DNA from: Parcubacteria group bacterium GW2011_GWA1_40_21
GTDB lineage: Bacteria > Patescibacteriota > Minisyncoccia > Phycocordibacterales > GWA1-40-21
Assembly: GCA_000996205.1 (NCBI GenBank)
Contig: LBYO01000003.1
Location: 1 to 41,582, forward strand
Direction: 5' to 3'
Length of the DNA: 41,582 nucleotides
The notes under the pieces were generated by a model. That model was not told the DNA's origin. It saw only the letters and a program-made list of their open reading frames with translations, and did not search any database. Of this stretch, positions 2,165 to 4,237 are shown piece by piece; within the stretch, counting starts at the first letter, position 1; each line of letters begins with the position of its first letter. The translations under genes and the position numbers were made by a program.

Positions 2165-4237
2165 ATGTCTCCAAGAATTCCACACGAAATAATAGAGAGG
2201 TTAAACAAACTGAAAAAGACGATAGAACACCATCGCTATCTTTATCATGTCTTGGACAAGCAGGAAATTTCCGATGCGGCGCTTGATTCGCTCAAATATG
2301 AATTGGCAAAAATTGAAGAGGAATATCCCGAACTCATTACACCCGATTCGCCTTCGCAAAGAGTTGCCGGCGAGCCGCTTAAAGAATTTGAAAAAGTGAT
2401 TCATAAGGTCCCTCAATGGTCTCTCGGTGACGCTTTCACGGAAGAAGACATCTTGGAATTTGACGAGCGAGTCAAAAGGATGCTTGCGAAAGAGAAAGAA
2501 GCGAAAGAACCCCAACTTGGAGGTCTCGCCTCCAAGTTGGCCACTTGGAGGCGAGACCTCCAAGTGGAATATGTTTGCGAGCTTAAGATTGACGGGCTTA
2601 AAGTTGTTTTTCATTATGAAAATGGATTATTTGTCCGCGCGGTTACGCGCGGGGACGGGAAAGTGGGCGAAGATGTGACTAATAATATCAGGACAATAGA
2701 ATCGCTTCCTCTTAAGCTCACCGAGCCATTAAATATTATTCTTGAAGGAGAAGTGTGGATGAGCAAGAAAAATTTTGCCGAGCTCAATAAAGAGCGGGAG
2801 AAAAAAGACGAGCCTCTTTTTGCCAATCCCAGAAATGTGGCGGCCGGCTCAATCCGTCAGCTTGATCTGAAAATCGCCAAGGAAAGAAAGCTGGACTCGT
2901 TCATCTATGACATCGCTTACACAAACGGCAAGATGCCGGAAACTCAAATTGAGGAATTGGAATTTATCCAGCATCTCGGTTTCAAGGTAAATAAAAATTT
3001 TAAATTATGTCCGACTGTCGGCGAGGTGATTAAATATTGGAAAGAGTGGCAGAGGCGCGCCCCCAGAGAAGATTATCTGATTGACGGCGTTGTAATCAAG
3101 GTCAATGAACGAGAGTGCCAAGAAACTTTAGGTTATACCGGCAAATCGCCAAGATACGCAATCGCTTTCAAATTTCCGGCGGAACAGGTGACAACGGTCG
3201 TGGAAGATATCATCCTTCAAGTTGGCAGAACCGGCGTCATCACTCCCGTGGCGCATCTTCGTCCCGTATCTGTCGCCGGCTCGGTGGTTTCCAGAGCGAC
3301 ACTTCACAACGAAGACGAAATCAAACGGCTTGATGTGAGAGTGGGGGATACGGTGGTCTTGCAGAAAGCCGGAGATGTTATTCCTGATATTGTTTCTGTG
3401 GTGAAAGAGATGAGAACGGGGAAAGAAAAACCTTTTATGTTTCCGGAAAAGGTGGCGGCTTGTGGCAGTGGCGGCAGGATTGAAAAAATTCATGGACAAG
3501 TCGCTTATCGGTGCGTCAATAAAAACTCTTTTGCTCAACAGAGAAGAAAGCTCTATTATTTCGCCTCAAAAAAAGCTTTTGACATTGAAGGGCTTGGACC
3601 GAAAATAATTGACCAGCTTATGGAGAGCGGACTTATTTCTTCTTATGATGACATTTTTACTTTGAAAAAGGGCGACCTCTTGAATCTTCCAAGATTTGCC
3701 GAAAAGTCGGCTGACAATTTGATTTATTCGGTTGAAAAATCAAAGACCGTGACTTTGGTGCGTCTTCTCATCGCTCTCTCAATTCCTCAAGTTGGGGAAG
3801 AAACCGCGAACGATATTGCCAAGCATTTCAAAGATATAAAAAAAATTAAAAGCGCCTCGTTTGAGGAATTGGAAAAGATAGATGGCGTCGGTCCGATAGT
3901 AGCCAAATCCGTCCGTGATTGGTTTGACGATCCCCGCAATCGCCATAATCTGGAAAATCTTCTTAAACATATAAAAATAAAAAAAGTTGAAATATCAGCC
4001 TCGGGTATGTCCGGTTTTGTCGGGAAAACTTTCGTTCTTACTGGAACATTAAAATCAATGACCAGAGACGAAGCCAAAGAGCTCATCAGAAAAAACGGCG
4101 GGGAAATTTCCTCGTCCGTTTCCTCGCAAACCGATTATGTCGTGATAGGAGAAAACCCCGGGTCAAAATTTGATAAAGCGAAAGAGTTGAATGTGAAGAT
4201 TTTGACGGAGAGCGAGCTTGTAAAGATGCTGGAATAA
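2165..4237 (+). CDS. ligA: NAD-dependent DNA ligase
   Basis: YY..D...ISD, ELKIDG adenylation motif, TRGDG, FANPRN, VGRTG, HhH repeats, C-terminal BRCT. Confidence 0.98.
2512..2567. repeat. REP-like palindrome doublet inserted in frame in ligA
   Basis: ccaacttggagg-tctcg-cctccaagttgg followed by its inverted copy ccacttggagg-cgaga-cctccaagtgg. Confidence 0.9.

What the first reader, a model, noticed from the sequence alone, without database searches (positions are those of the whole stretch)
2512..2567. REPIN-like doublet adds about 19 aa next to the LigA catalytic motif
Seen: two adjacent perfect hairpins (12-bp and 11-bp stems, 5-nt loops), each the reverse complement of the other, encode [19 protein letters not shown] a few residues before ELKIDG. 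Known: the segment before EY.xE.KxDG is a short, variable linker in LigA. Inference: this is a recent insertion (the stems are perfect) tolerated in an essential enzyme. It shares CTTGGA/TCCAAG arms with the palindromes at 11490 and 17508.
Basis: partly seen in the sequence, partly recalled or inferred. Interest (0 to 1): 0.7.

Follow-up and report, generated by a model that had tools for sequence, protein, structure and literature searches.

The report
REP-type palindrome pair inside ligA
The two hairpins inside this ultra-small groundwater bacterium's DNA ligase gene are copies of a tiny palindromic repeat that is scattered through the genome and tied to hairpin-cutting transposases; they are read through as a floppy surface loop, a behaviour already known for such repeats.

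Summary
Window 2512-2540 and 2541-2567 are two perfect hairpins. The second is the reverse complement of the first, minus one A·T pair. They lie in frame in ligA and encode [19 protein letters not shown], four residues before ELKIDG.

They are two of 28 copies of a 23-nt palindrome, ACTTGG-N11-CCAAGT, in this 0.76-Mb Patescibacteria genome (reversed-pattern control: 0). Other copies sit in frame in gatB, miaA, a prepilin peptidase gene and a glycosyltransferase gene.

The genome encodes two RAYT-like Y1/HUH transposases, each flanked by its own palindrome class. The RAYT type that goes with the ACTTGG class was not found in this assembly. It lies directly downstream of ligA in two congeners.

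All four species of the genus have a palindrome at this ligA linker, each with a different sequence. So "recent because perfect" is not supported: the site is old and its content turns over.

Intragenic REP dimers are in print (Di Nocera 2013, including a DNA ligase). This scan had already noted in-frame palindromes and a RAYT elsewhere in this genome.

Verdict: a real feature and a new member of a known kind. The genome-specific turnover at shared sites is the interesting residue.

The parts
2165..4237 (+). ligA, NAD+-dependent DNA ligase, 690 aa, intact; the host gene
   Evidence: ORF. Pfam hits for DNA_ligase_aden, OB, HHH_2 and BRCT. Motif I Lys141 (KIDG) is invariant in the 30-sequence alignment.
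2512..2540 (+). REP unit 1: CCAACTTGGAGG-TCTCG-CCTCCAAGTTGG, 12-bp stem; read as (P)QLGGLASKL
   Evidence: The core 2515-2537 matches ACTTGG-N11-CCAAGT.
2541..2567 (+). REP unit 2: CCACTTGGAGG-CGAGA-CCTCCAAGTGG, 11-bp stem, inverted copy of unit 1; read as (A)TWRRDLQV
   Evidence: The identical 23-mer lies in an intergenic spot of congener G002 (C23:701-723).
2515..2565 (.). The whole doublet as one REPIN-like palindrome: 23-nt arms, 5-nt spacer TGGCC
   Evidence: I4, 100% complementary. It is the minimum-energy fold as both RNA and DNA.
2486..2509 (+). GCGAAAGAG AAAGAA GCGAAAGAA: tandem AKE(KE)AKE duplication just upstream of the doublet; extends the preceding helix
   Evidence: Read. It is absent from the three congeners. 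The model puts helix 93-114 over it.
11491..11509 (.). Intergenic palindrome of the related class C (TTGGACATC-A-GATGTCCAA), the class that flanks the RAYT-like gene on contig C5
22217..22249. Intergenic palindrome of class B (AAATTCTGTGGGTAT-CTG-ATACCCACAGAATTT), the class that flanks the RAYT-like gene on contig C9
17519..17540 (.). Degenerate ACTTGG-class unit (CTTGGAAACCGTGTTTCAAC), next to CCAAGG-GGAGT-CCTTGG at 17498-17524
   Evidence: Read; no statistics were run on it.

Best explanation
The doublet is an in-frame pair of REP-type palindromes (a REPIN-like inverted dimer). It belongs to the ACTTGG-N11-CCAAGT class of small non-autonomous repeats of this Patescibacteria lineage.

Inferred mechanism: such repeats are propagated as single-stranded DNA hairpins by RAYT-type Y1/HUH transposases. 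This step was not tested here.

The pair sits in the one slack segment of the adenylation domain, between helix 93-114 and the strand that carries the motif I lysine. No reading frame of either strand has a stop, so it is translated as a roughly 20-residue disordered surface loop and the ligase stays intact.

The site has been occupied since before the four species of the genus split. What changes is the inner stem and loop, always with both arms, and both units, changing together. The most likely cause is replacement or conversion from other copies of the genome's current variant, possibly helped by hairpin-templated repair (inferred).

In this genome the matching RAYT, which lies right downstream of ligA in two congeners, is lost or unassembled. 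The ACTTGG class here is therefore probably orphaned.
For: Shown by calls:
- Family size: 28 sites of ACTTGG-N11-CCAAGT in the genome against 0 for the reversed control. Congeners have 21-39 each, and 25 of the 41 genomes searched have none.
- Pairing with varied sequence: 19 of 28 copies have all four inner pairs Watson-Crick, spread over 15 inner variants. Paired cells are 90 of 112, against a shuffle mean of 63.9 and maximum of 85.
- Two Y1_Tnp genes in this genome (37.0 and 35.1 bits; cut-off 23). HUH His87/His89 and Tyr147 are invariant in 16 relatives.
- The top fold match of the RAYT-like model is 4er8_A, the E. coli REP-associated transposase bound to a REP hairpin (E 8.8e-6, TM 0.66 on the target).
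- Each RAYT-like gene is flanked by its own palindrome class.
- In G001 a RAYT lies directly downstream of ligA. It carries ACTTGGGAG-CTCAA-CTCCCAAGT at its flanks and inside its ORF. The same variant sits in that species' ligA linker, and 20 of the 21 G001 copies are this one sequence.
- The G002 ligA palindrome core equals the repeat that flanks another G002 RAYT.
- Filled against empty sites inside the genus: gatB is empty in G003 and the glycosyltransferase gene is empty in G001.
- The LigA model has mean pLDDT 90.7, and its only segment below 50 is 119-129.
- In-frame copies sit in linkers of GatB, MiaA, peptidase A24 and a GT1 enzyme.
Against: - No RAYT of the ACTTGG-associated subtype is in this assembly. 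tblastn with 16 RAYT ORFs hits only the C5 and C9 genes. The genome is 97.7% complete in 26 contigs.
- The NCBIfam RAYT equivalog scores 35.7 and 30.1 bits, below its cut-off of 80. phmmer against PDB sequences finds no RAYT.
- The repeats carry no GTAG or CGTC tag (sequences).
- No target duplication or clean insertion boundary is visible. The left arm overlaps the ancestral GAA CTT GGx codons.
- The miaA copy causes no length change against other genera, which simple insertion does not explain.
- The G001 copy in the hypothetical gene is decayed and is not the master variant, so homogenisation is not universal.
Confidence: 0.8

Rival explanations
1. Local origin only. The palindrome was made in place by template switching (fold-back copying) of the ancestral linker and kept perfect by quasi-palindrome correction, with no mobile element involved.
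For: - Other genera encode the linker's Leu-Gly as CTTGG. L010 has GAG CTT GGG and L024 has AAC CTT GGA GGA, which is the left arm itself.
- The G002 palindrome includes the ancestral Ala-Lys codons GCCAAG as its outermost arm.
- Many copies have private, perfectly complementary outer extensions.
- The miaA copy changes no length.
Against: - 28 dispersed copies exist, and the same 23-mer occurs at unrelated loci and in other species.
- In G001, 20 of 21 copies are identical, which local events cannot produce.
- Palindrome classes travel with RAYT subtypes.
- Template switching may still contribute to arm extension and upkeep.
Confidence: 0.08
2. A selected cis-element of ligA: an RNA or DNA hairpin kept at this place because it tunes ligA translation, mRNA stability or replication-fork events.
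For: - All four congeners have a hairpin at the same linker, with arms changed on both sides.
- The fold is very stable.
Against: - The sequence is that of the generic dispersed family.
- G002 has an unrelated palindrome class at this site.
- 24 of the 30 LigA genes compared have a short linker whose longest inverted repeat is 6 nt or less.
- The same repeats sit in linkers of unrelated genes.
Confidence: 0.07
3. Assembly or chimera artefact at a palindrome.
For: One short contig of run X7 stops at 2541, between the two units.
Against: - Contigs of two runs span the doublet without a single difference.
- The reading frame is kept.
- Three congeners assembled elsewhere have palindromes at the same codons.
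Confidence: 0.02

Closest known systems
REP / REPIN elements with RAYT transposases (E. coli TnpAREP with REP/BIME, PDB 4er8; Pseudomonas REPINs of Bertels and Rainey, PMC3116915, seen as search listing and abstract only)
   Same: - A short palindromic unit is repeated tens of times.
- Inverted dimers can form one long hairpin.
- Y1/HUH transposase genes are flanked by their own repeat class.
- The best fold match is 4er8.
- Inheritance is mostly vertical, with genome-specific master sequences.
   Different: - Copies lie in frame inside essential genes as well as between genes.
- Units are perfect 23-nt palindromes with a conserved outer stem and an interchangeable inner stem.
- There is no GTAG or CGTC tag.
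- The RAYT genes carry their own repeat inside their ORF.
- Several RAYT subtypes and repeat classes coexist in genomes of 0.5-0.9 Mb.
- The NCBIfam RAYT equivalog cut-off is not reached.
Intragenic REPs and REP dimers of Di Nocera et al. 2013 (PMC3733652; abstract and passages read)
   Same: That paper reports REPs inside genes. More than half are dimers or grouped repeats that encode 20-30 amino acids. Many lie in replication and repair genes, and it names a DNA ligase in Opitutus terrae. This is the same behaviour as here.
   Different: - A different repeat superfamily (no GTAG/CGTC tag) in a different phylum.
- Here orthologous sites can be followed across four species, which shows turnover of the inner stem.
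- I did not open the paper's supplementary table of intragenic REPs.
Rickettsia palindromic elements (RPE) (recalled; also named in the passages of PMC3733652)
   Same: Palindromic repeats inserted in frame in protein-coding genes, including essential ones, and tolerated as surface additions.
   Different: The classic RPE-1 is much longer than these 23-29 nt units (its 100-150 nt size is recalled, not from a call). No RAYT link was recalled or seen for RPE.
Small dispersed repeats of Nostoc (Elhai et al. 2008; recalled, not retrieved)
   Same: Hairpin repeats of 21-27 nt that insert into otherwise conserved sequence and nest within copies of themselves. Nested copies occur here at C10:17982-18032 and C16:20878-20928.
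   Different: No enzyme was linked to the cyanobacterial repeats. Here classes pair with RAYT subtypes.

Membership tests
REP/REPIN-RAYT system | Short (about 20-40 nt) palindromic unit present in many copies in the genome | tested here: met
   28 sites of ACTTGG-N11-CCAAGT against 0 for the reversed control. Perfect hairpins genome-wide: 404 entries against 12-20 in three shuffles (nested loop definitions are counted apart).
REP/REPIN-RAYT system | REPIN: two units in inverted orientation with a short spacer, able to fold as one long hairpin | tested here: met
   23-nt arms, 100% complementary, 5-nt spacer. The long hairpin is the minimum-energy fold.
REP/REPIN-RAYT system | The genome encodes RAYT-type Y1/HUH transposases flanked by the repeats | tested here: met
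   C5:10838-11536 is flanked by class C and C9:4037-4801 by class B. HUH and Tyr are invariant. The top fold hit is 4er8_A.
REP/REPIN-RAYT system | A cognate RAYT for this repeat class in this genome | tested here: not met
   tblastn with 16 RAYT ORFs finds only the C5 and C9 genes. RAYTs carrying ACTTGG-class or closely related TTGG...CCAA repeats are present in G001 (next to ligA), G002, G036 and G040. The assembly has 26 contigs, so absence is not proven.
REP/REPIN-RAYT system | Match to the curated RAYT model (NCBIfam NF047646, equivalog) | tested here: not met
   35.7 and 30.1 bits against a cut-off of 80. Pfam Y1_Tnp is passed: 37.0 and 35.1 bits against 23.
REP/REPIN-RAYT system | GTAG or CGTC tetranucleotide tag at one end (the two superfamilies of PMC3733652) | tested here: not met
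   Copies read (CC)CA-ACTTGG...CCAAGT-TG(GG). No GTAG or CGTC is present.
REP/REPIN-RAYT system | Mobility: filled against empty orthologous sites | tested here: met
   The gatB site is empty in G003 and filled in G000, G001 and G002. The glycosyltransferase site is empty in G001. For the ligA site itself no empty state exists inside the genus.
REP/REPIN-RAYT system | The RAYT binds and cuts its repeat as single-stranded DNA | not testable with these tools
   Needs a biochemical assay.
Rickettsia palindromic elements (RPE-1 type) | Palindromic element of about 100-150 nt inserted in frame in protein genes | tested here: not met
   In-frame location is met. Size is not: units are 27-29 nt and the doublet 56 nt. 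The RPE size is recalled.
NAD+-dependent DNA ligase LigA (host gene) | Adenylation, OB, HhH and BRCT domains; motif I KxDG lysine | tested here: met
   Pfam hits. K141 and D143-G144 are invariant in 30 sequences. The fold outside the insert is confident.

The most novel reading that the evidence does not exclude
Intragenic REP sites act as inherited landing pads. The outer stem stays fixed while the inner stem and loop are overwritten in trans by whichever variant the genome's resident RAYT currently propagates (REP-to-REP strand exchange). Loops of essential enzymes such as LigA, MiaA and GatB would then change in step with a domesticated transposase.

Evidence that leaves this open:
- G001 carries its single master variant at the ligA, miaA and gatB sites.
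- G000 and G002 differ by the same compensatory pair (AGGC/GCCT against AAGC/GCTT) at two independent orthologous sites, miaA and the hypothetical gene.
- The miaA copy changes no length.
Probability: 0.3. Interest if true: 0.75.

Novelty: new member of a known kind. Interest (0 to 1): 0.5.

Why it matters
- It shows that REP/RAYT-type systems, studied mainly in Proteobacteria, are active in ultra-small Patescibacteria genomes. There they write short disordered loops into essential enzymes without breaking them.
- For annotation, the extra 17-19 residues in LigA are repeat-coded filler and not a functional motif.
- For mobile-DNA biology, the four-species comparison offers a tractable case of concerted evolution of dispersed hairpins at fixed sites. 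It could be tested with one enzyme and a few oligonucleotides.

Tried and rejected
- RNA evidence: no RNA holder is listed among the 20 runs found. Nothing can be said on expression.
- Population variants: contigs of four groundwater runs show no indel or alternative form at the doublet. Contigs drop rare variants, so this neither supports nor excludes ongoing mobility.
- phmmer of the C5 RAYT-like protein against PDB sequences gave only a chance hit at E 0.47. The fold search was needed instead.
- No RAYT remnant lies downstream of ligA in the window. Synteny with the congeners ends at the ligA stop.
- I looked for target-site duplications at the filled/empty gatB and glycosyltransferase sites and found none. 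The alignments there are ambiguous.
- Literature: the search 'REPIN / RAYT / Patescibacteria' (at least 2 of 3 terms) listed 15 of 62 papers, none holding 'Patescibacteria'. 'Repetitive extragenic palindromic' plus 'Candidate Phyla Radiation' gave one unrelated preprint. I found no published description of RAYT/REP systems in this phylum in those two searches.
- A script error (a motif was not found in two loci) was corrected.

Full report
**1. The observation**

The sequence at 2512-2567 is as described.
- One search finds arms 2512-2523/2529-2540 (12 nt, perfect, loop TCTCG).
- It also finds arms 2515-2537/2543-2565 (23 nt, perfect, 5 nt between), so the whole doublet is one long palindrome.
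- One search lists 2541-2567 as an 11-bp stem with loop CGAGA.
- Unit 2 is the reverse complement of unit 1 apart from one missing A·T pair.
- The motif ACTTGGAGGN5CCTCCAAGT (up to 2 mismatches) occurs twice in the window and never in 100 shuffles.

The units lie in frame in a 690-aa ORF (2165-4237) that has every LigA domain. They read [19 protein letters not shown], followed by EYVC and ELKIDG.

The lowest-energy fold of either nucleic acid is the long hairpin. As RNA it is -54.1 kcal/mol (z -9.3), and as DNA -30.4 kcal/mol (z -11.0).

Contigs of two groundwater runs span the doublet with no difference. Those runs may be the source of the window.

**2. A dispersed family**

The window belongs to a 760,931-base, 26-contig, 40% G+C genome scored 97.7% complete. 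Its LigA relatives are labelled Patescibacteria, Paceibacterota or Parcubacteria.
- The strict hairpin motif (up to 2 mismatches) has 11 sites in the genome against 0 for the reversed control.
- The general form ACTTGG-N11-CCAAGT has 28 sites against 0.
- 19 of 28 copies have all four inner pairs Watson-Crick although there are 15 inner variants. Paired cells number 90 of 112, against a mean of 63.9 and a maximum of 85 in 2000 re-deals.
- The genome holds far more perfect hairpins than shuffles: 404 entries against 12-20 (nested loop definitions counted apart).
- Two further classes stand out. Class B is TCTGTGGGTATC-W-GATACCCACAGA, with 25 sites. Class C is TTGGACAT-N3-ATGTCCAA, with 18 sites. 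Both were counted with up to 2 substitutions.
- A hybrid, ACTTGGACATCCGATGTCCAAGT, links the ACTTGG class and class C.

**3. Copies inside genes**

I used a crude ORF-based gene call (797 ORFs covering 84.5% of the genome). By it, 9 of the 28 ACTTGG-class copies lie inside called ORFs, one of them in a doubtful 70-aa ORF. The real hosts, all confirmed by Pfam, are:
- LigA (two copies).
- GatB (two copies, between GatB_N and GatB_Yqey).
- MiaA.
- A type IV prepilin peptidase (between its two domains).
- A GT1 glycosyltransferase.
- A 267-aa protein without a Pfam match.

The palindrome has no stop in any frame. It reads LGxxxSKL, TWxxxxQV or (H/N/D)LExxxPS, depending on the frame. Only 2 of 25 class B copies and 1 of 18 class C copies are inside called ORFs.

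**4. The transposase link**

Pfam Y1_Tnp finds two genes in the genome. Both pass the Pfam cut-off (37.0 and 35.1 bits against 23) and both fail the NCBIfam RAYT equivalog (35.7 and 30.1 bits against 80).
- The C5 gene is flanked by class C palindromes and has one in frame inside its own ORF.
- The C9 gene is flanked by six class B palindromes.
- In an alignment of 16 such ORFs from five genomes, the HUH histidines and Tyr147 are invariant.
- A model of the C5 protein (pLDDT 83.3; the repeat-coded loop 44-65 is below 50) matches 4er8_A best. That entry is the E. coli REP-associated transposase on a REP hairpin (E 8.8e-6). ISDra2 and IS608 TnpA follow.
- In the relatives, each RAYT-like gene carries its own palindrome class at both flanks and usually inside the ORF.
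- Of six ORFs with the LN[PSH]NH[YF]HF form of the HUH motif, five carry ACTTGG-class or closely related TTGG...CCAA repeats: L041, L049, L052, L053 and L007. For L048 I found none with stems of 8 or more.
- No gene of that subtype is in this assembly. tblastn with all 16 ORFs hits only C5 and C9, apart from one unrelated 42-residue match on C4.

**5. The ligA site in relatives**

I compared 30 LigA loci, the window's own and 29 from the 41 genomes searched.
- 24 have a linker of 12-18 residues whose longest inverted repeat is 6 nt or less.
- The six longer linkers all hold inverted repeats. Arms are 23 nt (window), 24 (G003), 8 (G001), 20 (G002), 17 (G030) and 15 (G024).
- Five of these exceed every same-length control window in their own gene. 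G001 ties its control.

Inside the genus, where ligA DNA is 76-79% identical, the four sites read as follows:

| Species | Palindrome in the ligA linker |
|---|---|
| G000 | AGG inner stem, loops TCTCG and CGAGA |
| G003 | an inverted doublet with AAAC inner stems, loops TCG and CGA |
| G001 | CTTGGGAG-CTCAA-CTCCCAAG plus a truncated second unit |
| G002 | a 41-nt perfect palindrome of another class |

- The core of the G002 palindrome equals the repeat that flanks a G002 RAYT (L055).
- In G001 a RAYT lies immediately downstream of ligA and carries the same GGGAG-CTCAA variant five times around and inside it.
- In G002 a RAYT with TTGGCGGT-TTC-ACCGCCAA repeats also abuts the ligA 3' end.
- Downstream synteny with the window is lost right after the ligA stop.

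**6. Turnover at shared sites**

| Site | G000 | G001 | G002 | G003 |
|---|---|---|---|---|
| miaA (outer stem CCCAACTTGG / CCAAGTTGGG at the same codons in all four) | AGGC-TTC-GCCT | GAGC-TCA-ACTC | AAGC-CTC-GCTT | ACAT-TCA-ATGT |
| gatB | two direct AAAC-CGA units | an inverted doublet of its master variant | an ACAT doublet | empty |
| GT1 glycosyltransferase | filled | empty, 8 aa shorter | filled (right arm decayed) | only a weak match (E 1.4e-4), not examined |
| 267-aa hypothetical | AGGC-GAG-GCCT | decayed, not the master variant | AAGC-GAA-GCTT | GAAC-GAA-ACGT |

- The miaA copies cause no length change against other genera.
- In G001, 20 of 21 copies are one identical sequence. The other three genomes are heterogeneous.
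- G000 and G002 differ by the same compensatory pair (AGGC/GCCT against AAGC/GCTT) at both miaA and the hypothetical gene.

Site occupancy is therefore older than the sequence that occupies it, and variants track genomes rather than sites. I infer replacement or conversion in trans, plausibly by the RAYT, with hairpin-templated repair as a helper. Neither process is shown.

**7. Effect on the protein**

A model of residues 1-341, built from the 30-sequence alignment, has mean pLDDT 90.7. Its only segment below 50 is 119-129. Helix 93-114 runs through the duplicated AKEKEAKE, and strand 136-142 carries motif I. The doublet thus codes a floppy loop between two well-predicted elements. I could not measure its distance to the active site.

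**8. What does not fit**
- There is no cognate RAYT in this assembly.
- There is no GTAG or CGTC tag.
- There is no target duplication.
- The left arm coincides with the ancestral GAA CTT GGx codons. L024 even reads AAC CTT GGA GGA.
- In G002 the outermost arm is the ancestral GCCAAG.
- Many copies have private outer extensions that are perfectly complementary.
- The miaA copy changes no length.

These points suggest that insertion uses, or later recruits, flanking sequence, for example by template switching. They keep a purely copy-and-paste picture from being complete.

**9. Comparison with what is known**

Di Nocera et al. 2013 (PMC3733652; abstract and passages read) report REPs inside genes, mostly as dimers encoding 20-30 residues. 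Many are in replication and repair genes, and a DNA ligase of Opitutus terrae is among them. The behaviour is therefore in print.

Two literature searches found no paper joining RAYT/REPIN or REP with Patescibacteria or the Candidate Phyla Radiation, apart from one unrelated preprint.

Earlier notes of this scan on other pieces of the same genome already describe in-frame palindromes in ileS and a RAYT-like gene that is flanked by, and contains, its palindrome. My independent checks agree with them.

**10. Verdict**

The claim of recency does not. It is a new member of a known kind. The genome-specific turnover of inner stems at fixed intragenic sites is the part worth following.

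Noticed in passing
L035:1757-1789 (G000 contig C5:11346-11378): The RAYT-like gene carries a copy of its own class C palindrome in frame (peptide ..LDIECPK..). The same holds for most RAYT ORFs of the relatives, and the G002 RAYT L055 encodes KPLPTSDVGKG, the same peptide as the G002 LigA insert.
   Followed up: partly
L085, L086, L066 (gatB of G002, G003, G030), about residue 195 of GatB: Three relatives have further, unrelated in-frame inserts of 10-23 residues at a second gatB site (RNPKSETNSKLEIQNFNEK; TSSADRLNLPPESDPPQAEKSKI; LSPDLRSDLK).
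   Followed up: no
L013 and L066 (G030 ligA and gatB): A genome of another family carries its own repeat (AAGGTT-S-AACCTT type, peptides LGSEKRFN / LESEKRFN) at the same ligA linker and the same gatB linker as this genus. This is either parallel use of the same permissive sites or a very old occupancy.
   Followed up: partly
window 4828-4909: A 43-nt imperfect inverted repeat made of AGGTTRT-like heptamers lies between the 149-aa minus-strand ORF (4368-4817, not scanned against any family library) and the next gene (I1).
   Followed up: no
G002 contigs C75:1-570 and C16:11728-12036 (L080, L088): G002 miaA is split over two contig ends a few codons after its palindrome. Several ACTTGG-class copies of G000 also lie within 400 nt of contig ends (C19:148, C21:383). 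The repeats seem to break assemblies.
   Followed up: no
G000 contigs C10:17982-18032 and C16:20878-20928: Nested forms: one ACTTGGAAAC unit sits in the centre of another, giving 24-nt perfect arms.
   Followed up: no
L087:701-723 (G002 contig C23): The exact 23-mer of the window's unit 2 (loop CGAGA) lies between a stop codon and the ATG of a 329-aa ORF (not scanned against any family library) in G002. Its GGAGG stretch looks like a Shine-Dalgarno sequence but lies about 20 nt before the ATG, and the hairpin's 3' end lies 5 nt before it.
   Followed up: no
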